Notes: a model not told the origin generated them from the letters alone. DNA of 64,000 nt from Sphingobacteriales bacterium (GCA_947460245.1 CANHGL010000001.1:200437-264436); one strand, 5' to 3'. Numbered from the stretch's first letter, positions 44,617 to 56,250 are shown. A program made the numbers and translations.

Positions 44617-45555
44617 TTACCGAGTTTGCAGCTCATTATGAACCACTATTTGCCTTACAGGCATATACCTCGGCACTAGACCAGCCCTCAGTAATATCTT
44701 GGAAGCCTTTACCCTGCACAAGAAGTTAGAGAAGCCTTTGCCTACCAACTCTGGATTTCTACCCAAGACCAGATTGACAGGACATTGTAGGGGATAGGAA
44801 AAATCATAGATACTCTGTTGGGATGGAAGGTAAGCTGTACCACCTTGACTCACTTTCAACACCTTCAAGGAAGACAGTAACTTCGCAGTTTCCGTATTGT
44901 CTTCGCTGATCTTGTTATAAGGAATGAAGCCAATGCTGTTCGGATTGCGTTTTACATATTCTATGACTGCGGTCGTATTTTTCACCACCAATGCATTTTT
45001 GAAACTTGCGGCAGCGATGGACGCTTTATTAGCAATAAAACTTGGTATACCCGACTGCTCATTATCGAATATAAGACGTACTGTGCTATTTGCTTTTAGG
45101 TAATTTTTAATAGCCCCCACGTCTATTGCAGAATCTTTAAAAGAGACATTCGCAATAACAGCTACGGCAGTGTAAGCAAAGATATTTTCTGTAATCTCTA
45201 TTTTCTGATGCTGTTGGCTGCTTTCTTTTTCTTTCGCTGTTAATGCCCTGCAGACGATCATAGAAGTTATCTCTCCATTTATAAAGTTACTGATGATTTT
45301 ATCCTGTGGTTGAAATCTTAGCTGCACATCTGCATTAGTATTTTCATGCTCATAGATTTGCTTCAACTGTCCCAAGATATCACTAACACTCTCATCTGTA
45401 GCGATAGTGATAGTACCGCTATTCCAGTCGTTATAAACCGTATCTTTTTTTTTCATTTGACATGCACCAAAAAGAAAAAGGATAGGAATACTGCTTATCA
45501 GCAGGATACGAAATTTTCGATTACTGTACGTTGCTCTGTTTTTATTGAATAGCAT
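44617..45555 (-). CDS. PstS-like periplasmic substrate-binding lipoprotein (PBP type 2)
   Basis: Lipobox LFLFGAC after ATG 45555. A PBP-like fold is suggested by GTITIATDES...IGFIPYN...LVLGRNP. The ligand is not determinable. Confidence 0.5.
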   Translation of the reverse strand: MLFNKNRATYSNRKFRILLISSIPILFLFGACQMKKKDTVYNDWNSGTITIATDESVSDILGQLKQIYEHENTNADVQLRFQPQDKIISNFINGEITSMIVCRALTAKEKESSQQHQKIEITENIFAYTAVAVIANVSFKDSAIDVGAIKNYLKANSTVRLIFDNEQSGIPSFIANKASIAAASFKNALVVKNTTAVIEYVKRNPNSIGFIPYNKISEDNTETAKLLSSLKVLKVSQGGTAYLPSQQSIYDFSYPLQCPVNLVLGRNPELVGKGFSNFLCRVKASKILLRAGLVPRYMPVRQIVVHNELQTR

Positions 45556-45784
45556 CTTGTTCTTCTTTAAACATGGCATAGGCTCTGTACGCTCTGAATA
45601 AGCCATATATTAGAATTACTCCACCAAATGCAAAGCTCATTTCTTTACTCAGAAATGTTAGCACTTCTGGATGCAGAAAAAGAAATAAGGCTAATAGACA
45701 GTATCCCACTGCTATTGCCATACGTAAAATAAAACCTGAATTTTTAAAGTATTCCATAGTATAAAAATAAATAATCTGCTTCAT
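45542..45784 (-). CDS. small two-TM membrane protein
   Basis: 80 aa with two hydrophobic helices. It is co-directional with, and overlaps, the downstream lipoprotein gene. Confidence 0.4.
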   Translation of the reverse strand: MKQIIYFYTMEYFKNSGFILRMAIAVGYCLLALFLFLHPEVLTFLSKEMSFAFGGVILIYGLFRAYRAYAMFKEEQDAIQ

Positions 45785-45809
45785 CTTTTCTCAGAATTCA
45801 AACACCCAT

Positions 45810-45841
45810 AAAATAAAAATCCTCACGCAAGGTGAGGATTC
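45810..45841 (-). terminator. rho-independent terminator after tonB
   Basis: AATCCTCAC-gcaag-GTGAGGATT perfect 9-bp stem. On the minus strand it is followed by TTTTATTTTAT, 20 nt downstream of the tonB stop. Confidence 0.7.
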
Positions 45842-45860
45842 TATTCTTTTAATTGAACAT

Positions 45861-46670
45861 CTATTGGAGCTTAAAGGTAACAGGTAAGGTATAGTATACC
45901 TTAACAGTTTTTCCACGCTGTGATCCGGGAGTCCATTTTGGCATAGCCTTCACAACTCGCACTGCTTCATCTCCACAGCCTCCACCAACTCCATCTTTAA
46001 GAACGAGTGGATCACGAACGGTACCGTCTGTATCAATATAAAATTTCACAATTACTTTTCCTTCCAGTCCATTTTCACGAGCCAATGAAGGATAGCGTAT
46101 ATTCTTTTGCAAGAACTTCATAAGTTCTGGCACACCGCCAGGATATCCGGGCATTACTTCTGCCCTGTCAAAGATTTCAGGCTCTTTAGGTGCTTCAGGT
46201 GCTCCTGGGCCAGAACCTTTATCTTCTATAATAGCCTTGGCGTTTATATCCCCTTCCTGAGTACTGGAAGCAACTTGCGTTTCCTTAATTTCTTCTACCT
46301 TGGTTATAGGAATCTCTTCAGCCACCTTCTCATCTTCCTTAGCAATCATCTCCACAAACTTAATTGTTGGTCGCACAGGTGGTGGTGGTGGTGGTGGTGG
46401 TGGCGCCTCTACCGGTGGTGGTGGTGGCGGTAATTCCACGTCTGTCATTTCTAAAGAAATCTCTTTTTCTTTTTTATTAGAAGTTAGAAAAGAGAATATA
46501 TTGAACTGAGAAGAAAGGACAACGAATAAGAAAAACCCTATGGCAATTAATATACCTCTGAGTTTATTCCTTTCCACGAGCTTTCTTAACTCATAAGCAC
46601 CATAGGCCTTATTTCTCCCTTCGAAGATAATATCATCCCATGATGCATTGTTATAATTAGTGTTGTTCAT
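45861..46670 (-). CDS. tonB: energy transducer TonB
   Basis: N-terminal TM anchor, proline spacer PPPPPPVEAPPPPPPPPPVRP, and a C-terminal TonB_C domain (YPSLARENGLEGKVIVKFYIDTDGTV). Confidence 0.9.
   Translation of the reverse strand: MNNTNYNNASWDDIIFEGRNKAYGAYELRKLVERNKLRGILIAIGFFLFVVLSSQFNIFSFLTSNKKEKEISLEMTDVELPPPPPPVEAPPPPPPPPPVRPTIKFVEMIAKEDEKVAEEIPITKVEEIKETQVASSTQEGDINAKAIIEDKGSGPGAPEAPKEPEIFDRAEVMPGYPGGVPELMKFLQKNIRYPSLARENGLEGKVIVKFYIDTDGTVRDPLVLKDGVGGGCGDEAVRVVKAMPKWTPGSQRGKTVKVYYTLPVTFKLQ
46378..46430. repeat. (GGT)n trinucleotide tract (two runs) encoding the TonB proline spacer
   Basis: GGT x8 at 46378-46403 and GGT x4 plus GGCGG at 46414-46430. On the coding strand these are CCA/CCG proline codons. 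Confidence 0.9.
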
Positions 46671-46709
46671 TCCGTTTCTCGGTTTTAGTTTAACTAATAT
46701 CGGGCTTGT

Positions 46710-47291
46710 TTATTTTCCCGGTGCCGTTTCGGAGGTAGCAAATGATTTTACCTGACCTCCATTAGCGATAGCCTCTTTTTCAATATCAGAAAGATCCTGA
46801 ATAGCATAGATCTTTGTTTTGGTAATATCAATCTCATCCAAAATATCAACCATATTCTTATAGTTCGCATCATCGGAGAGTTTTACCAGAACAATAATCT
46901 GATTGTCTCCCTTTTCATCATCACCATGAATAGCCTTTACCTTTTTCTGTTTATCGAGAATAATTTGTCGTATTCCCTGAGCAGAGTAATCAGTAGTTTT
47001 TAAACCGGCAACATGCAAGCCTTCATAATACCAAACCTTATTGTCCTTATCGGCAATCAGATTTAAAACTTTAGACTCTTTTACATCTTGTTTTTCTTTC
47101 ACGTCTTTTTTAGGCATTGCCAAGTCCATGGCTACAGGCTTGGACAATGAAGTCGTTAACATGAAGAAGGATATTAACAAGAACGCCAAATCTACCATTG
47201 GGGTTAGATCGACGCGGGTGGACAATTTCTTAGAGCGTTTACCGCCTTTTTTACCATGCCCACCCCCTTGGGAGGTATCTATATCTGCCAT
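46710..47291 (-). CDS. exbD: ExbD/TolR family biopolymer transport protein
   Basis: Basic N-terminus, then VDLTPMVDLAFLLISFFM (ExbD TM signature) and a periplasmic domain. Confidence 0.85.
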   Translation of the reverse strand: MADIDTSQGGGHGKKGGKRSKKLSTRVDLTPMVDLAFLLISFFMLTTSLSKPVAMDLAMPKKDVKEKQDVKESKVLNLIADKDNKVWYYEGLHVAGLKTTDYSAQGIRQIILDKQKKVKAIHGDDEKGDNQIIVLVKLSDDANYKNMVDILDEIDITKTKIYAIQDLSDIEKEAIANGGQVKSFATSETAPGK

Positions 47292-47343
47292 AATATTCTT
47301 TTATTTAAGGAAACACCACACCGTGGCTGTTTCAATTAAAAAT

Positions 47344-47973
47344 TTAATCGTTATTGCCTTCCAAAGAGGTGATGATATTAAAGCTGTATACATCTTTTTC
47401 TTTCATCACTTCAATTACCCGCTGAACAGCTTTGATATTAGAAGTTTTATCTCCTTTTATGGCAAATTTTAATTTATTGATATCGTCATCTGCATAGGCA
47501 TAGCGTGCCGCCATAATCCATTCTCCTAATTGATTATCCGTTGAATCTTTTGGGATTCCCGGGAATTTATAATCCTGCAATTGTTCCGGTTTAATAGCTA
47601 CCATCTGGGGAATTGACTGTATAGGCACTCCAATCAGTTCTAAATTGCCAAACTGATTTTTCTGCTGTTGAGTCATTGCCGCAACATTTGGGTATTTGTC
47701 ACCGTACTTTGCAATGATCTTATCTAAAACCTCTATTCTTCGCTTAGGAATGGACATATTTAAATATGCATTACCTGCCTTGTCGACAGAGATGGTGATA
47801 ATATCTTCCTTTACCTTTTGTTCTGCACGAGAGGTAGGAATATCAATAGGTACTAATTGAGAAGGGCGGAATTTTGCCGTAAGAATGAAAAAAGTAAGCA
47901 ATAGAAAAGCCACATCACACATCGCGGTCATGTCTACTATAGTACTTTTACGAGGAACTTTTATTTTTGGCAT
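47344..47973 (-). CDS. exbD: ExbD/TolR family biopolymer transport protein
   Basis: VDMTAMCDVAFLLLTFFIL TM signature. It is the second ExbD paralogue in the operon. Confidence 0.85.
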   Translation of the reverse strand: MPKIKVPRKSTIVDMTAMCDVAFLLLTFFILTAKFRPSQLVPIDIPTSRAEQKVKEDIITISVDKAGNAYLNMSIPKRRIEVLDKIIAKYGDKYPNVAAMTQQQKNQFGNLELIGVPIQSIPQMVAIKPEQLQDYKFPGIPKDSTDNQLGEWIMAARYAYADDDINKLKFAIKGDKTSNIKAVQRVIEVMKEKDVYSFNIITSLEGNND

Positions 47974-47997
47974 TTTCCTAAATTTTTAATCTATGTA

Positions 47998-48810
47998 TTA
48001 ATGTTTCCTCGAAGCAAATGATTGAGATAAGCTGTAGCCTATTTCGTCAATTCCATAGGTTAACTTATCAATCTTACTAGTAAAGAGGTTGTACATAATA
48101 ATAGCAATAGCAGAGGTAAAAATACCTAATGCTGTATTGATCAAAGCTTCAGAGATACCAGAAGCCAAAGCAGCTGGATCCGGAGAGCCAGAAGTTGCCA
48201 AAGCAGCGAACGCTTTAATCATACCAATTACCGTTCCTAAAAGAGCGATTAAGGTACCTACAGAAGCAATAGTTGCTAAAATTGGCAAGTTTTGTTCTAA
48301 TGCAGGAAGTTCCAAAGCAGTAGATTCTTCTACTTCTTGTTGGATAGCCAATACTTTCTTCTCTCCTTCGAGTTCTGTATTTTTTTCCATTTCAGCATAT
48401 TTTAAAAGACCAGCTTGAACAACATTAGCTACAGCGCCCTTTTGTTTGTCGCATTCTGCCAATGCTCCGTTGATATCATTTCCTGCAAGTTTTGCTTTAA
48501 CACTACGAAGGAAGTTTTCCAGGTTACCTGTACCTGCAGCCTTACCAATGGTCAAATGTCTTTCGATAGAGAAAGTAATAACAACGATAAACATGGTCAT
48601 CAGGAAAGGAACGATTACACCACCTTTATAGATAATACCCATATAATCTCCAGGATTAGGTTCTTTCCTTAAAGAATCTTTAAAGTGAGACAGATTTCCG
48701 AAAACAAAGTGGAAGATTAATTCGGATACGATTAATGCCACTATCATTACTAAAAATGGAGGTACTGAAAATCCGCTTTTTGCGGTGTTTGTTTTTTGTC
48801 CTTGAGCCAT
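47998..48810 (-). CDS. exbB: MotA/TolQ/ExbB proton-channel protein
   Basis: Three TM helices and a C-terminal MotA_ExbB core (LPILATIASVGTLIALLGTVIGMI...ISEALINTALGI). ATG 48810 is preferred over TTG 48819. Confidence 0.9.
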   Translation of the reverse strand: MAQGQKTNTAKSGFSVPPFLVMIVALIVSELIFHFVFGNLSHFKDSLRKEPNPGDYMGIIYKGGVIVPFLMTMFIVVITFSIERHLTIGKAAGTGNLENFLRSVKAKLAGNDINGALAECDKQKGAVANVVQAGLLKYAEMEKNTELEGEKKVLAIQQEVEESTALELPALEQNLPILATIASVGTLIALLGTVIGMIKAFAALATSGSPDPAALASGISEALINTALGIFTSAIAIIMYNLFTSKIDKLTYGIDEIGYSLSQSFASRKH

Positions 48811-49069
48811 GATTGTCAATTTAAGTTTAAAATGATGTTGATTTTAGATGATTAAGGGGGTAAATTTATACTATTTTTTGGTTTATTCTATATTTTTTGA
48901 ACGAAAAATAGGTGAATTTATTGCCTTGGCAAAGACCTCGCTTTCTTATGTTCCAAGGGGTGATTGTAGTCACTCATTCCGATACCTGAGTTAAATTTTT
49001 ATAGATTTAAGTGTGGGTTGATTAAATAGTTAGTCTTCCCTTCCTTGGTATGGCTAAACTCGACATCTT

Positions 49070-49285
49070 ATGAAGAAAATAATCTATTGTGAATGTGGTT
49101 GGGCGGGCAGCCCAGAACAATTGGAGCAAATGCCTACCATTAATAATGAATTTAGCAGGGTTTGTCCCCGATGCGGAGAGGGTATGCTTCCTGACCCCGT
49201 GGAGGTTCACGAAGAAACATTTAGTCTTATAATGAAACAACAGTTGCAGGAAATGGAAGACCTACAAGAGCAAGAAGATGAGTAA
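49070..49285 (+). CDS. small zinc-ribbon protein with acidic tail (hypothetical)
   Basis: 71 aa with CECG...CPRCG (four Cys ligands) and an acidic C-terminus EMEDLQEQEDE. The overlapping antisense ORF 49022..49240 has no such features. Confidence 0.4.
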   Translation: MKKIIYCECGWAGSPEQLEQMPTINNEFSRVCPRCGEGMLPDPVEVHEETFSLIMKQQLQEMEDLQEQEDE

Positions 49286-49304: not shown

Positions 49305-49607
49305 TTAGTTGTTGGGTGCTCCTGCATCTATCCAACAGAGGATGGAGTTCTTCTCTGTAGATGACAAAGTTCTTCCTTTAGGCATAGAGCCGTCTGCAAT
49401 TACCGAATATACAGACGATTTTCTTGCACTTACATTAGCATACCCTGTATATTGTGTACCATGACAACCTGAACATGAAGCCAATAAGGGCGCAACATCT
49501 GTAGTATAGGATTTTGCGGGACCACTGCAATCTGCAGTATAGTTGGCGGATTTTTTGCAAGAAATTATCAGCGCTGCAAAAATGATAATAAAGAATATTT
49601 TTTTCAT
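49305..49607 (-). CDS. lipoprotein with one planctomycete-type cytochrome c (PSCyt1-like) CxxCH domain
   Basis: Lipobox LIISC. DVAPLLASCSGCHG...DGSMPKG...ILCWIDAGAPNN shows CxxCH, a distal Met-Pro and a W-x-x-x-GA ending. Confidence 0.6.
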   Translation of the reverse strand: MKKIFFIIIFAALIISCKKSANYTADCSGPAKSYTTDVAPLLASCSGCHGTQYTGYANVSARKSSVYSVIADGSMPKGRTLSSTEKNSILCWIDAGAPNN

Positions 49608-49675
49608 ATCTCAAATATAACTAATCAAACTATAGAGCTGGCGCTTTGGTTGTTAGAAAAAGTTAAGTAGCAATG

Positions 49676-50680
49676 CTACTCCTTGCCTTTTTGTGCAGCT
49701 TTCTTTTTTGCTCTTTTCTCTTTTCGTTCTGCCTTTGCATCTTTACCTACCCCCCAGGTTCTGGAAATATTGAATCCAATATGTATATCTCCCTTCCAAA
49801 AATTACCGGTGGTTCTGCGCAAGAATCCACTTTCATACATAGCCTGAGCATTAGTAATTTGGAATTGAAATACATGACCTCCAGTTACCACATCCAATCC
49901 TATTGCAAAGATGTCTTTGTTGTAGCCATTATTTTTGTTATCGTTGATATTTCTGTAGTATTCTGCAAGAAGAGAGAGCCTCTTGGAAGCTTTTACTTTA
50001 AAGCCCATACCTAAAGAAAAAACAGTATTGGGGTCTGCACTGGTTGCCACCAGATTAAAGTGCGTTACGGTAGGCGTGAGCTGAAAAGAAAAATATTCAT
50101 TGAATTTACGCGCCATGATTAACTGAAAAGCATAGGACATCCTGGAAGTAAAATAATTTTTCCTGCTAGGATCCTGCCATTTTAGAGAATTAATGGCCAT
50201 ATCTGCATACAATGCCATACTAAATGGCATACCTTTTTTCTTCTGGTCTACAAAACGGTATTTGGTGTAGAAATCATAGGTTTTTTCGAATGTACTCCTA
50301 GATGCTCCAATACTAAGATTATCCAGAATTCCATATTCGAACGACATCCGCATGGAGGCCTGATCTAATCCAAAAAAGTCTCTCCATCCTCCCGCCTTTA
50401 CAGAACCAAAACGGTGAGAGATAATAAAAGCCATCGTTTTCTTATTGATGGTTTCTGTAGTCTGACCGTTAATGAGATGAGTTCCGCCAAAAGTATTATA
50501 CACCATTTCTTTCTTTGGTTTTTTTACCACAGAGGAAGCAGCAGCTGGCGGAATATCATTAAGCATATCCATTAAATTTTCACCTGAGGGAGAATTAACC
50601 CGAGCGGAATCATTACTCTGAGCATACAAGTTATATGCAGACAAACTTATACATAGCGCAAGTAAAATGTTTTTCTTCAT
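49676..50680 (-). CDS. DUF5777-like outer-membrane beta-barrel protein
   Basis: Signal peptide. TFGGTHLINGQTTE...FIISHRFG...FFGLDQASMRMSFEYG...SIGASRS matches my memory of the DUF5777 family. Lys-rich C-terminal tail. Confidence 0.55.
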   Translation of the reverse strand: MKKNILLALCISLSAYNLYAQSNDSARVNSPSGENLMDMLNDIPPAAASSVVKKPKKEMVYNTFGGTHLINGQTTETINKKTMAFIISHRFGSVKAGGWRDFFGLDQASMRMSFEYGILDNLSIGASRSTFEKTYDFYTKYRFVDQKKKGMPFSMALYADMAINSLKWQDPSRKNYFTSRMSYAFQLIMARKFNEYFSFQLTPTVTHFNLVATSADPNTVFSLGMGFKVKASKRLSLLAEYYRNINDNKNNGYNKDIFAIGLDVVTGGHVFQFQITNAQAMYESGFLRRTTGNFWKGDIHIGFNISRTWGVGKDAKAERKEKRAKKKAAQKGKE

Positions 50681-50735
50681 TGTTCTGAATTTGAAATAAG
50701 AAAACCCCTACATAGAGATTTCTGGGGTTAATTAA

Positions 50736-51287
50736 TTACCGTTGGAATAGTGTAAGTGTTCCACTTACATATAAATCTATAACATCGCTGATTTTCTTTA
50801 CATAATCAGAGGATATTTTGATTTTAAAATCAGAGAGCTTAACATTAAACTGTGCTTTAACAATTATCTTACCGCTATCTATGATGATTTTACCACGCTG
50901 TTTGATTTTCTTTGTCACCCCATGAATAGTTAAATCACCCTCCACTATTACATCATAAGTTCCATTTTTGGCATAATCTTTCACCCCGTTAACTACCCCG
51001 GAAAGCGTAGCATTAGGATAGGCATCTGTCTCCAAATATTTATCATTAAAATGCTCTTTCATCGCTTCTTTTTCAAATTCAAAACTCTTCATCATTACCT
51101 TACAGGCAATATTTCCTGTGGCCGGATCCAGTATGATATTAACATCTTTGTTGCTAGATTCCAATTGCTCCATAGGAGTGTCTGAAATAAATTTAATTAC
51201 CCCACTGCGGGTAAAATACTTGGTTTGTGCTTGTACCGAAAGCAAACACATACACATTAAAAAAAATAGGCTGTTTATCTTTTTCAT
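50736..51287 (-). CDS. YceI family periplasmic (polyisoprenoid-binding-like) protein
   Basis: Signal peptide. The YceI-type pattern is IKFISDTPMEQLESSNKDV...KVMMKSFEF...HFNDKYLETDAYPNATL...LTIHGVTK. Confidence 0.7.
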   Translation of the reverse strand: MKKINSLFFLMCMCLLSVQAQTKYFTRSGVIKFISDTPMEQLESSNKDVNIILDPATGNIACKVMMKSFEFEKEAMKEHFNDKYLETDAYPNATLSGVVNGVKDYAKNGTYDVIVEGDLTIHGVTKKIKQRGKIIIDSGKIIVKAQFNVKLSDFKIKISSDYVKKISDVIDLYVSGTLTLFQR

Positions 51288-51296
51288 AATTATTAT

Positions 51297-51686
51297 TTAG
51301 TTATCTAATTTTCCTTGGCTAATCCAATCTGTAATCAATTGCAAATTACATTTAGCCAATTTCGTGCCCCCTTTTGGCATGGGTGAAACTGAGCCATCCT
51401 GATTAATAGAACCCGTGAATGCGCTTTGGCTATTCTGAAGGTATGCCGTTAGGTTTGCGTAACTATCCAGTTTTATATTACTTCCCAGAATTGGAGCATT
51501 AGAAGTACTATGGCACGCATAACAATTTGCATTTAGCACGGGAGCAACATCATTTACATAAGATATAGCTCCTGTTTTACAAGGAATATTTCCGTATAAG
51601 TTATCTTCTTTATCATAATAACAAGCAGTAAAAACCACTGATGCAAAAACTGAAATGAAGAATACACTAAGCTTATATCTTTTCAT
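51297..51686 (-). CDS. lipoprotein with one PSCyt1-like CxxCH domain
   Basis: Lipobox VFTAC. DVAPVLNANCYACHS...LDSYANL...SPMPKGG...LITDWISQG. ATG 51686 is preferred over 51713, which overlaps the upstream gene. Confidence 0.6.
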   Translation of the reverse strand: MKRYKLSVFFISVFASVVFTACYYDKEDNLYGNIPCKTGAISYVNDVAPVLNANCYACHSTSNAPILGSNIKLDSYANLTAYLQNSQSAFTGSINQDGSVSPMPKGGTKLAKCNLQLITDWISQGKLDN

Positions 51687-51691
51687 AGATT

Positions 51692-52129
51692 TTATTTTGA
51701 TAAGATTATACATTGGTCTAGTTTAATTTCTGCAGGGATCATAAACATGTCATCGATAATAGTGTATCCGGAATATGCTCCTTTTACTTTCACAGACTGC
51801 CCAGCTTTTAATATTGTCGCCTCTTTAATACCCTCTGCAGAAAGTGCATTAACGATTATAAATTTCCCTTTTTGATCAAATATTATTTTTATAGCATTCG
51901 AGTCTGATTCTACTTTATTAACAACTCCAGTTATCTCCATGATTTTATTCTTATAGACTGAATCTGCAGACATTGCATTTTTTTCAAAGCTGTTGAGGAT
52001 TTCTACTTCTGTTGCTACGATGTCTGTTGCCTTACTGCTCACTTTCTTCACCGGAGCAAAATACATATACAATCCGTACCCTACAGCTAATACTACTAAA
52101 ACAAAAACTATGGAAAATATTTTTTTCAT
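51692..52129 (-). CDS. membrane-anchored OB-fold protein (tRNA_anti-like family)
   Basis: N-terminal TM helix, then EILNSFEKNAMSADSVYKNKIMEITGVV...KAGQSVKVKGAYSG...IKLDQCIIL, the pattern I associate with PF12869-type OB-fold proteins. Confidence 0.55.
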   Translation of the reverse strand: MKKIFSIVFVLVVLAVGYGLYMYFAPVKKVSSKATDIVATEVEILNSFEKNAMSADSVYKNKIMEITGVVNKVESDSNAIKIIFDQKGKFIIVNALSAEGIKEATILKAGQSVKVKGAYSGYTIIDDMFMIPAEIKLDQCIILSK

Positions 52130-52137
52130 ACGCTAAT

Positions 52138-55100
52138 TTATTCTTTTATGAATGAACCCAGAAAGTTATCTTCTCCGAAATTCACTTTTAACACATATAC
52201 GCCTCTGGCCAAGTCTTCTGCATGTATTTCAAATGCCTGTCCTTTCTGGAGTCTGGATGTTACACAATAGACTTCATTTCCCATTATACCCATTATAGAA
52301 ACTGTAGCCTCGCCACTCTTATCCGGCACTATAACGAATTGACCTTTGTTTGGATTCGGATATAATTGAATTCTAGCATTTACATTATTGACTATAGCCG
52401 TCAACGCGCAGGTATTAATAGAAATATCACTACCATTGTCATTTCCCGTCACTCCATCATTATTACTTATCACTCTGATTCTGTAATGAGTTCCTCTCGC
52501 TAATCCGGATGGAAGTGTTACGTTAATTGGACTGCTTGTTCCATATCCAATAGTTAGTGGACTATTGAAACTGCCTGAAGTATCAGATAATTGCACCAGG
52601 AATGGTCCGGTTAAAGTACCTGTAGTGGTGTAGGCAACTGTCATACTATAAGAAGTATTTTGACAGTAAGGTCCAGCGCTTACACTTGCAGAAGTTGAAA
52701 TAGTAGGCGAACAGATATTACTTGTGATAACTACTGAATCTTTAGATGATGTACATGGTGAATTGGAAATTGTCCAGACAAATTTATTCTGTCCCACGCC
52801 TAACCCAGAAACACTACTTGTAGGGCTGGAAGAACTGGAAATAGTTCCGCTTCCACTCAACAATATCCATATTCCAGTACCCACTGTAGGAGTATTTCCA
52901 GCCAAAACAGCAGTTGTACCACAAACCGTTTGATCTACCCCTGCATTGGCAACTGTTGGAGTTGCTGTTCTCGTAATTATTACCGTATCGCTGGAAGATA
53001 TACATGGTGAATTGGAAATTGTCCAAACAAACTTATTCTGTCCAACACCTAATCCTGTAACTCCGCTTGCAGGGCTGGATGGTATAGTTATTGTTCCGCT
53101 ACCACTCGCCAATGTCCAAACTCCTGTACCTGAAACCGGCGTATTTCCGGCCAAGGTTGCCGAAGTTCCACAAACAGTTTGATCAGCTCCTGCATTAGCA
53201 GTTGTAATAGACCCTGATTGTATGATGACTACCGTATCGTTGGAAGATGTACATGGTGAATTGGAAATTGTCCAGATAAACTTATTCTGTCCGACACCTA
53301 AACCCGTAACTCCGCTGGTTGGACTCGATGGAATATTTATAGTTCCGCTACCACTTACTAGAATCCATACTCCTGTTCCCACTGTTGGAAGATTTCCAGC
53401 CAAAACAGCAGTAGTACCACAAACCGTTTGATCCACTCCTGCATTGGCTACTGTTGGAGCTGCCGCTCTGGTAATTATCACTGTATCCGTAGATGGTGTA
53501 CACGGAGGATTAGCAATCGTCCAAACGAATTTATTCTGTCCAATACCTAACCCGGCAATACCGCTTGAAGGGCTTGAAGGGGTAGTAATCGCTCCTGAAC
53601 CAAATACAAGTGACCAAGAACCAGTTCCTACTGTTGGTGCATTACCAGCTAAAGTAGCTGTAGTGCTACACACCGATTGATCTACTCCGGCAATAGCCGC
53701 TGTAATAGTTCCAGATTGTGTAATCAATACTGTATCACTAGAAGACGGACATGGCGAATTACTGATAGTCCAAATAAATTTATTTTGACCAACTCCTAAA
53801 CCCGTAATACCGCTAGTTGGACTAGTTGGTGAAGTAATCGTTCCAGTGCCACTTAATAATGTCCATGTTCCAGTGCCCACTGTTGGTGTATTTCCGAAAA
53901 GAGTAGCAGTATTGCTACATGCTGTTTGATCAATACCAGCATTAGCCACAGTTGGTGGCGCTACACCTGTAATAGAAACTGTATCTCTGGAGATGCAAGA
54001 GCCATTGCTAATAGTCCAGATAAATTTATTTTGTCCAACCCCTAGTACTGTAATACCGCTGGTAGGGCTGGATGGATTAGTTATTGTTCCGGTGCCATTT
54101 AATAATGTCCATATTCCTGTACCTATCGTTGGTGCATTTCCTGCTAAGGTAGCTGAAGTTCCACACACGGATTGGTCTACTCCGGCATTAGCTACAGTTG
54201 GTATGGCAGTGGCTGTAATAATTACTGTGTCTCTGGAAACACAAGAGCTATTACTGATAGTCCAAACAAATTTATTTTGACCAACTCCTAATACAGTAAC
54301 ACCACTTGTAGGGCTAGATGGTGAAGTGATAGTACCACTGCCACTGATTAGTGACCAGATTCCAGTGCCAACTGTAGCAGTATTTCCCGCTAAGGTTGCT
54401 GTGGTTCCGCACACAGACTGGTCTGCTCCAGCTATTGCAGGAGTCGGTGCTGCTGTAGCCGTAATAACTACAGTATCTCTGGAAACACAAGAGCCATTGG
54501 AGATAGTCCAGATAAATTTATTTTGTCCAACCCCTAGTACTGTAATACCGCTGGTAGGGCTGGATGGAGTCGTAATCGTTCCAGTGCCACTTAATAATGT
54601 CCATGTTCCAGCGCCCACTGTTGGCGTATTTCCAGCTAGGGTAGCTGTAGTACCACATATAGATTGATCAGCACCTGCACTGGAAACAGTTGGATTAAGA
54701 TTTATAGTTAAGTTCGTTCCATTGTCTGCACCTGTAATAACTGGGGTGCTAGAAACTACACGAATCCTATATTGAGTTCCTGCAGTTGCAGGTAATGGAA
54801 CTGTAGTGGTAATAGTTCCTGCTGCAGTAGAAGTTACCGAACCTAAAGTAGTAGGGGTTGTAAATGAACCCGTTGCACTGGAAAGCTGAGCTGTAAATAC
54901 ATTGCCTGCATTGTATGCTCCTGAAATAGTATAAGGAATACTTACCCCTGTCTGCCCTGCACAAAAAGGACTTCCTGAGATAGTTCCCGTGGTAATGGAA
55001 GCACCTGCAGCAGCCGAAAATACAGCAGATTTCGTATAGATATAGTCTCCAATATCATTTCTGTTATTATTAGCAGCATTACCGGATGTATAGAAAGTTA

Positions 55101-55557
55101 TATTACCGATATCAGTCAATGGGGCTGTCCATGAAAAATTAAATGATTTTGAATTAGCAACTAACCCTCCGTTATTAGTATGTGTAATATTCGTTTTGCC
55201 TCCACTCGTCAGTTTTTGTGTTGAAGCAGCATCTGTAATCGTCAGCGTGCCTGCATCTGTATTAGAAGTATTTAGTGCTTCAAAGTCAAACCCAAAAAGA
55301 GGGAATCCGGACTGTGCAACAGTTACAGTAATATTATAGGTTTGCCCCAGCACATAACCAGAACCCGGAATGTTTGTTGTAATAGTGGTACTGCCCACCC
55401 CTGAATTTACGGCATAGGAGCTATGGCAGCTGGTGCAATTTCCTTCACCAGGAGATGAACTCTTTCCTGCAACACCGTTTGAACTTCCATTAGCAATCTC
55501 TCTTATTAAAAAGATTACAAATAATAAAGGCAATATGCGCTTCAAAAATATAGCCAT
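52138..55557 (-). CDS. 1139-aa T9SS-secreted surface protein: N-terminal CxxCH domain, 2 bracketing Ig-like domains, 8 tandem repeats, T9SS CTD
   Basis: Signal peptide. GEGNCTSCHSS lies at aa 38-47 inside a ~180-aa beta-rich domain. Homologous ...YRIRV.S...G.DNG... domains sit at aa ~185-289 and ~950-1050. Eight repeats span aa 290-948. The C-terminus IQLYPNPNKGQFVIV...GVYVLKV is a T9SS type-A sorting domain. Confidence 0.8.
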   Translation of the reverse strand: MAIFLKRILPLLFVIFLIREIANGSSNGVAGKSSSPGEGNCTSCHSSYAVNSGVGSTTITTNIPGSGYVLGQTYNITVTVAQSGFPLFGFDFEALNTSNTDAGTLTITDAASTQKLTSGGKTNITHTNNGGLVANSKSFNFSWTAPLTDIGNITFYTSGNAANNNRNDIGDYIYTKSAVFSAAAGASITTGTISGSPFCAGQTGVSIPYTISGAYNAGNVFTAQLSSATGSFTTPTTLGSVTSTAAGTITTTVPLPATAGTQYRIRVVSSTPVITGADNGTNLTINLNPTVSSAGADQSICGTTATLAGNTPTVGAGTWTLLSGTGTITTPSSPTSGITVLGVGQNKFIWTISNGSCVSRDTVVITATAAPTPAIAGADQSVCGTTATLAGNTATVGTGIWSLISGSGTITSPSSPTSGVTVLGVGQNKFVWTISNSSCVSRDTVIITATAIPTVANAGVDQSVCGTSATLAGNAPTIGTGIWTLLNGTGTITNPSSPTSGITVLGVGQNKFIWTISNGSCISRDTVSITGVAPPTVANAGIDQTACSNTATLFGNTPTVGTGTWTLLSGTGTITSPTSPTSGITGLGVGQNKFIWTISNSPCPSSSDTVLITQSGTITAAIAGVDQSVCSTTATLAGNAPTVGTGSWSLVFGSGAITTPSSPSSGIAGLGIGQNKFVWTIANPPCTPSTDTVIITRAAAPTVANAGVDQTVCGTTAVLAGNLPTVGTGVWILVSGSGTINIPSSPTSGVTGLGVGQNKFIWTISNSPCTSSNDTVVIIQSGSITTANAGADQTVCGTSATLAGNTPVSGTGVWTLASGSGTITIPSSPASGVTGLGVGQNKFVWTISNSPCISSSDTVIITRTATPTVANAGVDQTVCGTTAVLAGNTPTVGTGIWILLSGSGTISSSSSPTSSVSGLGVGQNKFVWTISNSPCTSSKDSVVITSNICSPTISTSASVSAGPYCQNTSYSMTVAYTTTGTLTGPFLVQLSDTSGSFNSPLTIGYGTSSPINVTLPSGLARGTHYRIRVISNNDGVTGNDNGSDISINTCALTAIVNNVNARIQLYPNPNKGQFVIVPDKSGEATVSIMGIMGNEVYCVTSRLQKGQAFEIHAEDLARGVYVLKVNFGEDNFLGSFIKE
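52714..54690 (-). repeat. 8 tandem in-frame coding repeats of 246-249 nt (82-83 aa)
   Basis: Unit consensus: TVANAG.DQ.VCGTTATLAGN.PTVGTG.W.L.SGSGTI..PSSPTSG.TGLGVGQNKF.WTISN..C.S..DTV.IT. Anchors ACATGGTG recur at 52753, 53002 and 53251, giving a 249-nt period. Confidence 0.95.
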
Positions 55558-55575
55558 AGATTTCTACTTAAAACT

Positions 55576-56250
55576 TTAATTATTTGGGGCACCGGCAGTC
55601 ACCCATTTTCGTATCTGTGTCAATTTACATGGAGATAATTGTACTTGGCCTTTTGGCATTGGCGAACAACCAGCATAATTGATAGTACATTCTAGTTTCC
55701 CATTATCTACATAAGTTTTAATATTAGCATAGCTATCCAGTATTATACTTCCTCCAGAACTCGGTGCATTTGAAGTACTGTGACATCCGTAACAACTATT
55801 CTGGATAATAGGCTTGATAGTCGCACTATAGGTTATGTTGGTGGAATCACATGGACCTGCGCAATCCACCCCTATTTTCATCCCTTGACTTACCCAATCC
55901 TTTATCAATTGAATCTGCTCTGCAGTGAAACTGGCATACGGTGCCGGCGGCATACGGTTAGATCCTGTTTCCTGTATAATATCTGTTAGAAGCTGTCCTG
56001 AAATAGTAGATCTAATATGATTGTAGGAATCTAAAACAATACCCTCACGGCGAGATATATTATCATGGCAACCGGATTTGGCACAGCCTGAAGCAAGGAG
56101 AGGTAATATCTCCTCTTCAAAGCAAACACTGTCTTTAACATTCTGTGTAGGATTATTTGCAATAGGTTGCACGACAGGTTCATGCTTACATTGCATGAAA
56201 GAAAGAGTTACAACTAAAGCAACGAAAAAGGCACATATTCTGCTTTTCAT
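55576..56250 (-). CDS. lipoprotein with two PSCyt1-like cytochrome c domains
   Basis: Lipobox-like SFMQC. Domain 1: ILPLLASGCAKSGCHD...NRMPP...LIKDWVSQG (C-x4-CH). Domain 2: CYGCHS...LDSYANI...SPMPKGQ...IRKWVTAGAPNN. It is the first gene of the operon. Confidence 0.6.
   Translation of the reverse strand: MKSRICAFFVALVVTLSFMQCKHEPVVQPIANNPTQNVKDSVCFEEEILPLLASGCAKSGCHDNISRREGIVLDSYNHIRSTISGQLLTDIIQETGSNRMPPAPYASFTAEQIQLIKDWVSQGMKIGVDCAGPCDSTNITYSATIKPIIQNSCYGCHSTSNAPSSGGSIILDSYANIKTYVDNGKLECTINYAGCSPMPKGQVQLSPCKLTQIRKWVTAGAPNN

What the first reader, a model, noticed from the sequence alone, without database searches (positions are those of the whole stretch)
49305..56250. Seven-gene envelope operon: multiple CxxCH (planctomycete-type cytochrome c) lipoproteins, a giant T9SS protein, YceI, an OB-fold protein and a DUF5777-like barrel
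Seen in sequence: seven co-directional minus-strand genes with gaps of 5-68 nt.
- A 224-aa lipoprotein with two CxxCH-type domains.
- A 1139-aa T9SS cargo with its own CxxCH.
- A membrane-anchored OB-fold protein.
- A 138-aa CxxCH lipoprotein.
- YceI.
- A DUF5777-like OM barrel.
- A 100-aa CxxCH lipoprotein.

The four small domains are clear paralogues. They share (D/E)(V/I)(A/L)P(V/L)L...C..CH...LDSY...(S)(P)MP(K/P)...W(I/V)..G, and two of the proteins end in the identical GAPNN.

Established knowledge: that pattern matches what I recall of the PSCyt1 domain, which is known from giant planctomycete proteins of unknown function. YceI proteins bind polyisoprenoids or quinone-like lipids.

Inference: the set covers every envelope layer, from the inner-membrane anchor through periplasmic lipoproteins and an OM barrel to a surface protein. 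It could form a trans-envelope redox or lipid-handling pathway. As far as I know, no function is established for this gene combination.
Basis: partly seen in the sequence, partly recalled or inferred. Interest (0 to 1): 0.7.

Follow-up and report, generated by a model that had tools for sequence, protein, structure and literature searches.

The report
Conserved Bacteroidota cytochrome–barrel envelope cassette
The seven genes are real and belong to an unstudied gene cassette, found in hundreds of Bacteroidota species, that pairs small haem (c-type cytochrome) lipoproteins with a dedicated outer-membrane barrel, and here also with a cell-surface haem protein, so it probably moves electrons across the cell envelope.

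Summary
All seven minus-strand genes exist as described.

**Family assignments**
- YceI, DUF5777, tRNA_anti-like, the T9SS tail and choice-of-anchor V all pass curated cut-offs.
- The small haem domains are class-I cytochrome c. Their profile matches cytochrome c6, and the CXnCH motif and a distal Met-Pro are near-invariant.
- PSCyt1 is only borderline here (21.8 vs 22 bits).
- Correction: domain 1 of the 224-aa protein carries CX4CH, not CxxCH. This is a trait of the whole family.

**Conservation**
- DUF5777 relatives occur in at least 577 stretches of species-representative genomes. All 80 fetched are Bacteroidota.
- Of 60 loci with enough flank, 58 have the cytochromes beside the barrel, 48 have YceI and 45 have the OB-fold protein.
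- The giant T9SS protein is a rarer add-on. Its N-terminal domain has an invariant CxxCH, models as a Reeler fold, and recurs inside the cassette in other genomes.
- One lineage adds a DsrOP/NrfCD-type quinol module. About a quarter of loci sit next to a YceI–kinase–LytTR operon.

**Reading**
This is most likely an outer-envelope electron-transfer module (confidence about 0.4). Direction and substrate are unknown, and no paper in the searched library mentions DUF5777. Haem attachment, localisation and activity remain untested.

The parts
55576..56250 (-). A: 224-aa two-domain c-type cytochrome lipoprotein. Domain 1 (about nt 55876-56145) carries CX4CH (CAKSGCH). Domain 2 (about nt 55579-55860) carries CYGCH. 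Each domain has a distal Met-Pro, and the protein ends in GAPNN.
   Evidence: ORF. Sub-threshold hits to Haem_bd, Cytochrome_CBB3, PSCyt1 (21.8 against 22) and PccH. Domain alignment. Orthologues of about 240 aa occur in most related loci. Among them domain 1 is CX4CH in 41 of 42 and domain 2 is CX2CH in 41 of 50.
52138..55557 (-). B: 1139-aa T9SS cargo. Order of parts: signal peptide, N-terminal haem domain, Ig-like domain, eight PKD-like repeats of about 83 aa, second Ig-like domain, type-A C-terminal sorting domain.
   Evidence: The source record's gene call matches.
55012..55485 (-). B residues about 25-182: choice-of-anchor V domain with CTSCH at residues 41-45, predicted to be a Reeler-fold beta-sandwich.
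   Evidence: NF041895 at 104.5 bits against a cut-off of 42. C41, C44 and H45 are invariant in 47 homologues. AF2 model pLDDT 90.5. Best Foldseek PDB hits are the F-spondin reeler domain, 2zot and 3coo, at E 1e-6 and TM 0.66-0.71. The family comprises 5195 clusters at 50% identity.
52748..54669 (-). DNA tandem array (period about 246-249 nt) that encodes the PKD-like stalk repeats of B.
   Evidence: TRF. Eight GQNKF[IV]WT motifs spaced 82-83 aa apart. K319L-like_PKD at E 1.4e-7.
52141..52365 (-). T9SS type-A C-terminal sorting domain of B.
   Evidence: PF18962 at 36.2 bits against 27. TIGR04183 at 32.8 against 23.
51692..52129 (-). C: 145-aa OB-fold protein (tRNA_anti-like) with an uncleaved N-terminal membrane anchor.
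   Evidence: PF12869 at E 4e-11. The family profile weakly matches PDB 3f1z at E 0.0025. Present beside the barrel in 45 of 60 loci.
51297..51686 (-). D: mono-haem class-I cytochrome c lipoprotein. It is 129 aa from the second ATG; the ORF extends to 51713. It has the lipobox FTAC, then CYYDKED, then CYACH and a Met-Pro.
   Evidence: The public gene call is 129 aa. The acidic motif after the lipid cysteine is in 49 of 77 orthologues.
50736..51287 (-). E: secreted YceI-family lipocalin-like protein.
   Evidence: PF04264 at E 2e-16. Present in 48 of 60 loci.
49676..50680 (-). F: DUF5777 outer-membrane barrel, predicted to have 12 strands, with a lysine-rich C-terminal tail.
   Evidence: PF19089 at E 5e-90. 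AF2 pLDDT 78, 12 strands. Foldseek matches NanC, OmpG, FapF and the COG4313 channel. 3788 homologues were found.
49305..49607 (-). G: extra 100-aa mono-haem cytochrome c lipoprotein with CSGCH, Met-Pro and a GAPNN end.
   Evidence: A cytochrome also lies downstream of the barrel in L006, L020 and L053. G is not called in the public record. A terminator-like hairpin overlaps the stop codon of F.

Best explanation
The region is one instance of a conserved Bacteroidota cytochrome–barrel cassette, most likely an electron-transfer module of the outer envelope.

**Shown in silico**
- The constant core is one or two class-I (His/Met) c-type cytochrome lipoproteins encoded next to a dedicated 12-strand outer-membrane barrel (DUF5777).
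- A secreted YceI lipocalin and an inner-membrane-anchored OB-fold protein usually accompany them.
- In this window the cassette also carries a second mono-haem cytochrome.
- It further carries a T9SS-anchored surface protein whose N-terminal Reeler-fold domain has an invariant CxxCH.

**Inferred mechanism**
- After Sec export and periplasmic haem attachment, the two-domain cytochrome A works on the periplasmic side.
- The mono-haem lipoprotein D has a conserved acidic CYYD(K/N)EE segment that resembles the Bacteroidota lipoprotein export signal. D associates with the barrel F at or across the outer membrane.
- Where present, the surface haem protein B is the outermost redox site.
- YceI supplies or shuttles a lipophilic redox cofactor, such as menaquinone. 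This parallels the YceI-like plus cytochrome domains of Cellvibrio Cbp2D.
- The OB-fold protein tethers the system to the inner membrane.

The direction of electron flow and the external partner are not known. That partner could be a metal, a quinone or humic substance, a reactive oxygen species or an oxidative enzyme.
For: **Gene linkage**
- Cytochrome, YceI and the OB protein lie beside DUF5777 in 58, 48 and 45 of 60 loci. All three are present in 39 of 60. Gene order varies between clades, so linkage is kept by selection rather than by recent ancestry alone.
- Flanking genes are not conserved.

**Haem chemistry**
- 76 of 77 mono-cytochromes have one CXnCH, and 75 of 77 have a downstream Met-Pro.
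- The lipid Cys, C, C, H, M and P are invariant.
- The profile aligns full-length to cytochrome c6 at E 7e-5, with CxxCH and the Met-Pro aligned.

**Barrel**
- 12 strands; resembles NanC, FapF and COG4313 channels.

**Surface haem protein**
- Invariant CxxCH, Reeler fold and T9SS tail.
- It lies inside the cassette in L005, L062, L079, L081/L082, L083, L084 and L085.

**Link to the quinone pool**
- L081 and L082 read: Fnr-like regulator, cytochrome, DUF5777, Reeler-haem, DsrO-like Fe-S protein, DsrP/NrfD, a 315-aa protein, cytochrome c.

**Other support**
- Precedent for YceI plus c-type cytochromes in extracellular electron transfer: Cbp2D (PMC8981238, PMC12542752).
- The acidic post-cysteine motif is in 49 of 77 mono-cytochromes but 4 of 48 di-cytochromes, against the published export signal (PMC5080379).
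Against: - No experiment exists. Covalent haem, localisation and activity are all inferred.
- A 12-strand barrel is too narrow to enclose a 90-residue cytochrome, so how electrons would cross about 3 nm of membrane is unexplained.
- DUF5777 has no CxxCH of its own.
- His/Met mono-haem cytochromes usually have high potentials, unlike the bis-His multihaems of known outward conduits.
- The acidic motif lies two residues further from the cysteine than the optimal export signal, and position was critical in C. canimorsus (PMC5080379).
- In B the haem domain sits at the far end of a stalk of eight repeats, away from the membrane.
- The surface protein is absent from most cassettes (3 of 80 loci).
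- The quinol module is seen in one lineage only.
- Many carriers are ordinary aerobes with no known need for extracellular respiration.
Confidence: 0.4

Rival explanations
1. Periplasmic oxidation of a small imported reductant, or scavenging of a reactive species. The DUF5777 barrel would be a specific channel for a small solute such as Fe2+, Mn2+ or a sulfur compound, or the cytochromes would react with superoxide. The high-potential cytochromes would oxidise it in the periplasm and pass the electrons to the terminal oxidases, as FoxE does in phototrophic iron oxidisers. The surface haem protein would be an optional collector.
For: - The cytochromes are class-I His/Met type and c6-like.
- The family profile also touches the dihaem iron oxidase FoxE, 5mab, at E 0.0065.
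- The barrel resembles small specific channels such as NanC, OmpG and COG4313, and has many invariant polar residues.
- Most carriers appear to be aerobes.
- From memory: E. coli yceI lies next to cybB, which encodes a superoxide:quinone oxidoreductase.
Against: - No oxidase, peroxidase or metal-handling gene is recurrently linked.
- This reading does not explain the lipoprotein acidic motif, the OB-fold anchor or the recurrent surface haem protein.
- The FoxE match is weak.
Confidence: 0.25
2. Trafficking of a lipophilic molecule (an isoprenoid quinone, polyprenol, carotenoid or an exogenous hydrophobic compound) between the inner membrane, periplasm and outer membrane. YceI would be the carrier, DUF5777 a COG4313/FadL-like hydrophobic channel, and the OB-fold protein the inner-membrane dock. 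The cytochromes would only set or sense the redox state of the cargo.
For: - YceI proteins bind polyisoprenoids and ubiquinone-8 (as cited in PMC8981238).
- DUF5777 has a weak Pfam hit to Phenol_MetA_deg (E 0.018) and a Foldseek hit to the COG4313 channel 4rl8 (E 6.5e-5).
- In 17 of 19 loci with the large sensor kinase, a second YceI gene ends at or within a few bases of the kinase start, upstream of a LytTR regulator and next to the cassette. This suggests that the YceI ligand is the signal.
Against: - The tightest partner of the barrel is the cytochrome (58 of 60), not YceI (48 of 60).
- Several lineages keep only cytochrome plus barrel: L011, L031, L032, L040, L042, L077, L080 and L081.
- Similarity to the hydrophobic channels is weak and no better than to NanC or OmpG.
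Confidence: 0.2
3. There is no common function. The genes are merely adjacent, and the Cys-X-X-Cys-His motifs are structural disulfides or metal sites rather than haem attachment sites.
For: - Spacing of the two cysteines varies from 2 to 6 residues, which is unusual for c-type cytochromes.
- All Pfam cytochrome hits in the window proteins are below threshold.
Against: - Linkage is conserved across orders of Bacteroidota with shuffled gene order.
- The histidine directly after the second cysteine and the distal Met-Pro are invariant.
- There is a full-length profile match to cytochrome c6.
- Relatives pass the PSCyt1 threshold.
Confidence: 0.04

Closest known systems
Cbp2D / Cbp2E of Cellvibrio japonicus and Saccharophagus degradans (a YceI-like X158 domain plus the c-type cytochrome domains X183 and X132)
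   Same: Both combine a YceI-type isoprenoid/quinone-binding module with two small mono-haem c-type cytochrome modules outside the cytoplasmic membrane. The X183 domain is a plain electron-transfer cytochrome (+193 mV) that can reduce LPMOs (PMC8981238, PMC12542752).
   Different: - In Cbp2D the modules are fused into one secreted protein with a CBM2 and an FN3 domain. Here they are separate genes.
- The cassette has no carbohydrate-binding module.
- The cassette adds a dedicated barrel, an OB-fold anchor and lipoprotein anchors.
- The mono-cytochrome profile search listed cytochrome c6 entries first, and no Cbp2D or X183 entry was recognised among the 60 hits shown.
- The phylum differs.
Porin–cytochrome conduits (MtrCAB, Geobacter Pcc) and the fused porin-cytochrome Cyc2
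   Same: Both place an outer-membrane barrel gene next to periplasmic and surface-directed c-type cytochromes, some of them lipoproteins. One lineage also links a quinol-dehydrogenase module.
   Different: - The barrel has 12 predicted strands, against about 26 in MtrB and about 16-18 in Cyc2 (figures from memory).
- The cytochromes carry one or two His/Met haems, not multihaem bis-His wires.
- The barrel has no CxxCH.
- The system includes YceI, OB-fold and T9SS components.
PSCyt1 (PF07635), PccH (PF22297) and Haem_bd (PF14376) type cytochrome domains
   Same: They share the N-terminal motif (D/E)(V/I)xP(I/L)…C..CH, a distal MP and a W(I/V)..G(A) end. The family profile matches PccH 4rlr and the hydrazine synthase alpha haem domain over this motif. 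A relative scores 68.8 bits on PSCyt1.
   Different: - The window proteins fall below every Pfam cut-off.
- There are no PSCyt2 or PSD1 partner domains.
- The proteins are small lipoproteins rather than giant planctomycete proteins.
- The cysteine spacing is variable (CX2-4CH).
Reeler domain (PF02014; F-spondin, reelin, and FRRS1 ferric-chelate reductase)
   Same: The fold of the N-terminal domain of B matches: Foldseek E 1e-6, TM up to 0.71. Many homologues carry precomputed PF02014 hits.
   Different: - The bacterial domain has an extra N-terminal segment with an invariant CxxCH.
- It is carried by T9SS and other anchors.
- The window protein itself gives no Pfam Reeler hit.
- No haem is known in eukaryotic Reeler domains (from memory).

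Membership tests
DUF5777 (PF19089) | Pfam profile score above the gathering cut-off | tested here: met
   301.5 bits against 23.1, covering profile positions 1-247 of 247.
YceI (PF04264) | Pfam profile score above the cut-off | tested here: met
   61 bits against 23.7. The NCBIfam E. coli YceI equivalog is not met (26.6 against 232), so this is a family member, not an orthologue.
YceI (PF04264) | Bound polyisoprenoid or quinone ligand | not testable with these tools
   Needs purification and mass spectrometry.
tRNA_anti-like OB fold (PF12869) | Pfam profile score above the cut-off | tested here: met
   43.1 bits against 23.5. The family profile weakly matches PDB 3f1z at E 0.0025.
T9SS type-A cargo | C-terminal sorting domain (TIGR04183 / PF18962) at the extreme C-terminus, plus an N-terminal signal peptide | tested here: met
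   32.8 bits against 23, and 36.2 against 27, over residues 1065-1138 of 1139. A hydrophobic N-terminus is visible in the sequence.
Choice-of-anchor V domain (NF041895) | NCBIfam profile score above the cut-off | tested here: met
   104.5 bits against 42, residues 16-177.
Reeler domain (PF02014) | Pfam profile score above the cut-off | tested here: not met
   No hit for the window protein at E<=1. A relative in L079 scores 18.9 bits against 21.
Reeler domain (PF02014) | Reeler beta-sandwich fold | tested here: met
   AF2 model pLDDT 90.5. The top seven Foldseek PDB hits are all F-spondin reeler domain entries, E 1e-6 to 2e-5.
PSCyt1 (PF07635) | Pfam profile score above the cut-off of 22 bits | tested here: not met
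   A scores 21.8 bits and D 12.3 bits; G gives no hit. The 547-aa relative in L062 scores 68.8 bits, so the window domains are divergent relatives rather than clear members.
PSCyt1 (PF07635) | Association with PSCyt2 and PSD1 domains in large planctomycete-type proteins | tested here: not met
   No such domains were found in any cassette protein.
Class-I c-type cytochrome | Haem attachment motif C-Xn-C-H, distal Met ligand and a class-I fold | tested here: met
   C, C, H, M and P are invariant in 35 sequences. The profile matches cytochrome c6 at E 7e-5 with the motifs aligned. The spacing is non-canonical (CX4CH) in A domain 1.
Class-I c-type cytochrome | Covalently bound haem | not testable with these tools
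   Needs haem staining, pyridine haemochrome assay or mass spectrometry.
MtrCAB-type porin–cytochrome complex | Large barrel (about 26 strands) that sheaths a multihaem cytochrome | tested here: not met
   12 predicted strands. The cytochromes have one or two haem motifs.
Cyc2-type fused porin-cytochrome | CxxCH haem domain fused to the N-terminus of the barrel | tested here: not met
   F has a single cysteine, in its signal peptide, and no CxxCH. Longer DUF5777 proteins are tandem barrels, not cytochrome fusions.
Bacteroidota surface lipoprotein (export signal, LES) | A polar or positive residue followed by two or more acidic residues at positions +2 to +6 after the lipid cysteine | tested here: inconclusive
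   D reads C-Y-Y-D-K-E-D. The family motif CYYD(K/N)EE is in 49 of 77 members. It is acidic but shifted by about two residues from C-X-K-(D/E)2-X (PMC5080379).

The most novel reading that the evidence does not exclude
Bacteroidota possess a previously unrecognised trans-outer-membrane electron conduit. It would be built from mono- and di-haem class-I cytochrome lipoproteins, a 12-strand DUF5777 barrel and a quinone-loaded YceI. In some lineages it would feed a T9SS-anchored Reeler-fold c-type cytochrome. That would be the first extracellular electron-transfer system defined for the phylum, the first cytochrome cargo of the type IX secretion system, and a new haem-binding fold.
Probability: 0.25. 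Interest if true: 0.85.

Novelty: new variant of a known kind. Interest (0 to 1): 0.65.

Why it matters
**An unstudied, widespread system.** Bacteroidota dominate soils, oceans, sediments and wastewater, yet no outer-membrane electron-transfer system has been defined for them. This cassette is in hundreds of species-level genomes. It is made of catalogued but unstudied families: DUF5777, choice-of-anchor V and tRNA_anti-like.

**What it could explain.** If it moves electrons across the outer membrane, it could bear on several open questions in these bacteria:
- extracellular redox chemistry, such as metal or humic reduction, iron acquisition, and production or scavenging of reactive oxygen;
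- the electron supply for secreted oxidative enzymes.

**Points of general interest that can be tested directly.**
- A CX4CH attachment motif is fixed in a class-I cytochrome in a phylum that, from memory, uses the System II maturation pathway.
- A Reeler-fold domain carries an invariant CxxCH and belongs to a family of more than 5000 sequence clusters.
- A YceI gene ends at or within a few bases of the start of a sensor-kinase gene.

Tried and rejected
- **PDB sequence searches.** The barrel profile gave nothing meaningful. The single OB-fold protein gave nothing, and its family profile gave only a weak 3f1z match.
- **MtrB-like or Cyc2-like membership.** Rejected on strand number and on the absence of CxxCH in the barrel.
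- **Domain fusions.** Longer DUF5777 proteins (P0023, P0034) were checked as possible fusions with a cytochrome or YceI. They are tandem barrels only.
- **Window search for recurrent neighbours.** The sensor kinase, LytTR regulator, ECF sigma factor and Lipoprotein_15 genes seen elsewhere are absent from the window.
- **ExbB–ExbD–ExbD–TonB operon.** It was considered as part of the system and rejected. The closest relatives, L089 and L090, lack that adjacency and have other flanks.
- **Promoter and terminator scan.** Counts are close to shuffled expectation, and sigma-70 consensus does not apply well to this phylum. The only note is a hairpin at the end of F.
- **Upstream region of A.** Reading it showed nothing decisive. 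A repeat search on it failed on a strand-format error and was not repeated.
- **Invariant barrel residues.** An attempt to assign them to lumen or lipid faces from strand alternation was ambiguous and is not used.
- **Literature searches.** These returned nothing relevant: DUF5777; Reeler domain with haem in bacteria; type IX secretion with c-type cytochrome and extracellular electron transfer. YceI papers in Flavobacteriia only mention induction under iron limitation or on algal surfaces, with no link to this cassette.

Full report
**1. Observation**

One search confirms seven co-directional minus-strand ORFs between 49305 and 56250.

| Gene | Coordinates | Length |
|---|---|---|
| A | 55576-56250 | 224 aa |
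| B | 52138-55557 | 1139 aa |
| C | 51692-52129 | 145 aa |
| D | 51297-51713 | 138 aa |
| E | 50736-51287 | 183 aa |
| F | 49676-50680 | 334 aa |
| G | 49305-49607 | 100 aa |

- D most likely starts at its second ATG (51686, 129 aa). That removes the overlap with C, aligns with the N-termini of orthologues and agrees with the public gene call.
- The window matches a 285-kb metagenome scaffold (ENA ERZ28612991). In that record G is not called as a gene.

**2. Family assignments**

| Protein | Family | Score against cut-off, or E-value |
|---|---|---|
| E | YceI | 61 against 23.7 bits |
| F | DUF5777 | 301.5 against 23.1 bits |
| C | tRNA_anti-like OB fold | 43.1 against 23.5 bits |
| B, C-terminus | T9SS type-A sorting domain | 36.2 against 27 bits |
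| B, residues 16-177 | choice-of-anchor V | 104.5 against 42 bits |
| B, middle | K319L-like PKD | E 1.4e-7 |

- B has eight PKD-like repeats of about 83 aa between two Ig-like domains.
- The small cytochrome-like proteins hit only below threshold: PSCyt1 at 21.8 against 22 bits for A, plus Cytochrome_CBB3, Haem_bd and PccH.
- The PSCyt1 label is therefore a reasonable lead, not a demonstrated membership. A 547-aa relative in locus L062 scores 68.8 bits on PSCyt1.

**3. The haem domains**

- The four small domains are paralogues.
  - D against A domain 2: 44% identity, E 1e-24.
  - D against A domain 1: 24%, E 2e-10.
  - G against A domain 2: 31%, E 3e-9.
- A domain 1 carries CAKSGCH. That is CX4CH, not CxxCH.
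- Across related loci:
  - 76 of 77 mono-domain proteins have exactly one C-Xn-C-H. The spacing n is 2 in 53, 3 in 4, 4 in 18 and 6 in 1.
  - 75 of 77 have a downstream Met-Pro.
  - In the two-domain proteins, domain 1 is CX4CH in 41 of 42 and domain 2 is CX2CH in 41 of 50.
- In a 35-sequence alignment the lipid cysteine, both haem cysteines, the histidine, the Met-Pro, a Trp and a Gly are invariant. The chains end at G-x-P-N-N.
- The family profile aligns over its whole length with cytochrome c6 (E 7e-5), with CxxCH and the Met-Pro in register. It also touches PccH, the hydrazine synthase alpha haem domain and FoxE.
- I conclude these are class-I His/Met c-type cytochromes. Covalent haem itself cannot be tested here.

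**4. Conservation**

- DUF5777 has 3788 homologues at E<=1e-5.
All 80 loci fetched carry Bacteroidota titles: Chitinophagales, Cytophagales, Flavobacteriales, Bacteroidales, Saprospiraceae and Marinilabiliales.
- Sixty loci had enough flank to score. On the same strand within a few kb of the barrel:

| Partner | Loci (of 60) |
|---|---|
| Cytochrome | 58 |
| YceI | 48 |
| OB-fold protein | 45 |
| All three | 39 |

- Gene order differs between clades. Examples are OB–dicyt–monocyt–YceI–barrel, dicyt–monocyt–OB–YceI–barrel and dicyt–monocyt–barrel–YceI–OB. Linkage is therefore maintained by selection.
- The closest relatives of the window (62-70% identical barrels) have the plain five-gene form and unrelated flanks.
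- The window flanks are housekeeping genes: ExbB–ExbD–ExbD–TonB–PBP and citrate synthase on one side, HflX and a heptose-type sugar-nucleotide set on the other.
- The conserved unit is thus five genes. B and G are accessories in this genome.

**5. The T9SS protein**

- The N-terminal domain of B has homologues that are mostly about 280 aa, made of the domain plus a T9SS tail. C41, C44 and H45 are invariant in 47 sequences, and His126 is present in 41 of 47.
- The AF2 model is confident (pLDDT 90.5). Its best PDB matches are the F-spondin Reeler domain, at E 1e-6 and TM up to 0.71.
- A full HMMER scan finds 5195 clusters at E<=1e-3. The domain is always N-terminal. Protein lengths range from about 280 to more than 1800 aa, so long-stalk forms like B recur.
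- The gene is in only 3 of the 80 barrel-anchored loci: L005, L062 and L079.
- I inspected seven neighbourhoods of its closer homologues. Four distinct ones place it inside the cassette: L081/L082, L083, L084 and L085. Three more distant ones do not.
- It is therefore a recurrent optional component. T9SS type-A cargo are attached to the cell surface (established knowledge), so this is a candidate cell-surface c-type cytochrome with a new fold.
- I found no paper that connects T9SS with c-type cytochromes and extracellular electron transfer, or bacterial Reeler domains with haem.

**6. The barrel**

- The AF2 model has pLDDT 78 and 12 strands.
- Foldseek matches are generic small channels: NanC, OmpG, FapF and the COG4313 channel.
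- The barrel has no CxxCH. It has many invariant polar residues and a conserved N-terminal segment.

**7. Further context in other genomes**

- **Sensor operon.** A LytTR response regulator lies in 27 of 80 loci, and a sensor kinase of about 960 aa (Reg_prop propellers, Y_Y_Y, His_kinase) in 19 loci. In 17 of those 19, an extra YceI gene ends at or within a few bases of the kinase start, mostly with a 4-nt overlap.
- **Sigma factor.** An ECF sigma factor lies in 13 loci.
- **Quinol module.** L081 and L082 read: Fnr-like regulator, cytochrome, DUF5777, Reeler-haem, DsrO-like Fe-S protein (200.6 bits), DsrP/NrfD-like membrane protein, a 315-aa protein, cytochrome c. This links a minimal cassette to a quinol-interacting module.
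- **Absent from the window.** None of the kinase, regulator or sigma-factor genes is in the window.

**8. Mechanism**

*Shown in silico:* a conserved association of class-I cytochrome lipoproteins with a dedicated outer-membrane barrel, usually with YceI and an anchored OB-fold protein, and sometimes with a surface haem protein.

*Inferred:* an electron-transfer module of the outer envelope.

- The cytochrome is the partner most tightly linked to the barrel. Several lineages keep only those two genes. The core function should therefore involve haem plus barrel, with YceI and the OB protein as helpers.
- The mono-haem lipoprotein carries a conserved acidic segment, CYYD(K/N)EE, in 49 of 77 members against 4 of 48 di-cytochromes.
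  - It resembles the Bacteroidota lipoprotein export signal: C-X-K-(D/E)2-X, SDDDD or SDDFE (PMC5080379).
  - It is shifted by about two residues, so surface exposure is possible but unproven.
- YceI-like domains bind polyisoprenoids and ubiquinone-8. In Cellvibrio Cbp2D such a domain is fused to two c-type cytochrome domains, one of which reduces LPMOs (PMC8981238, PMC12542752). That is the closest functional precedent.

*Main difficulties:*

- A 12-strand barrel cannot enclose a cytochrome.
- His/Met mono-haems are usually high-potential.
- In B the haem domain sits at the tip of a long stalk.
- The surface protein and the quinol module are present in minorities only.

*Rivals:*

- Periplasmic oxidation of a small imported reductant or reactive species, in the manner of FoxE.
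- Trafficking of a lipophilic YceI ligand, with the cytochromes as accessories.
- No common function. The conservation data make this unlikely.

**9. Comparison with known systems and novelty**

- The cassette is not a member of the MtrCAB or Cyc2 families. Strand number, haem count and barrel-fused haem were all tested and not met.
- It resembles them only in the pairing of a barrel with cytochromes.
- Every component family is catalogued, but no paper in the searched library mentions DUF5777 and no function is assigned.
- I rate it a new variant of a known kind: an outer-membrane cytochrome system. There is a 0.25 chance that it is a true trans-outer-membrane conduit with a new type of surface cytochrome.

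Noticed in passing
window 49305-49607 (-) and 49070-49285 (+): The 100-aa cytochrome G is not called as a gene in the public record of this scaffold. That record instead calls a 71-aa plus-strand ORF with two Cys pairs (CECG…CPRCG) that has no Pfam match. G is homologous to the other cytochromes, so it looks like a missed gene.
   Followed up: partly
L013, L018, L022, L024, L039, L041, L044, L047, L049, L055, L057, L064, L070, L072, L078 and others: A second YceI gene ends at or within a few bases of the start of a sensor-kinase gene of about 960 aa (propeller, Y_Y_Y and His_kinase domains), mostly with a 4-nt overlap. A LytTR regulator follows, and the operon lies next to the cassette. YceI may act as a ligand-binding co-sensor.
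   Followed up: partly
L081 8898-12690 and 13541-16024; L082 likewise: Two DsrO/DsrP-like (NrfC/NrfD) pairs and a cytochrome c lie directly downstream of a minimal cytochrome–DUF5777–Reeler-haem set, under an Fnr-like regulator.
   Followed up: partly
Alignment A3; window A and G C-termini: Almost all cytochromes of this family end exactly at G-x-P-(N/D)-N. Such a strictly conserved free C-terminus suggests a docking role, but none was identified.
   Followed up: no
L046, L048, L074 (Polaribacter, Aquimarina): Two cassettes lie back to back. One has a cytochrome and one is only OB–YceI–barrel. A regulator of about 365 aa that clustered with the LytTR response regulators lies between them.
   Followed up: no
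L086 5885-6934: In a contig without the cassette, a more distant choice-of-anchor V homologue sits next to a cupredoxin (Copper-bind) protein with a dockerin-like segment. This is another redox neighbour for the domain.
   Followed up: no
P0023, P0034: Some DUF5777 proteins are two barrels fused in tandem, at 569 and 462 aa.
   Followed up: no
window 44617-48819 (-): An ExbB–ExbD–ExbD–TonB–PBP operon lies directly downstream of the cassette. The adjacency is not conserved in the closest relatives.
   Followed up: yes
window 52724-54667 (+): A series of 69-113-aa ORFs lies antisense to the repeat region of B. They repeat with the same period and look like shadow ORFs of the tandem array.
   Followed up: no
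L003, L056, L058, L060, L074 and others: A Lipoprotein_15 (PF03640) repeat lipoprotein lies just upstream of the cassette in six loci.
   Followed up: no
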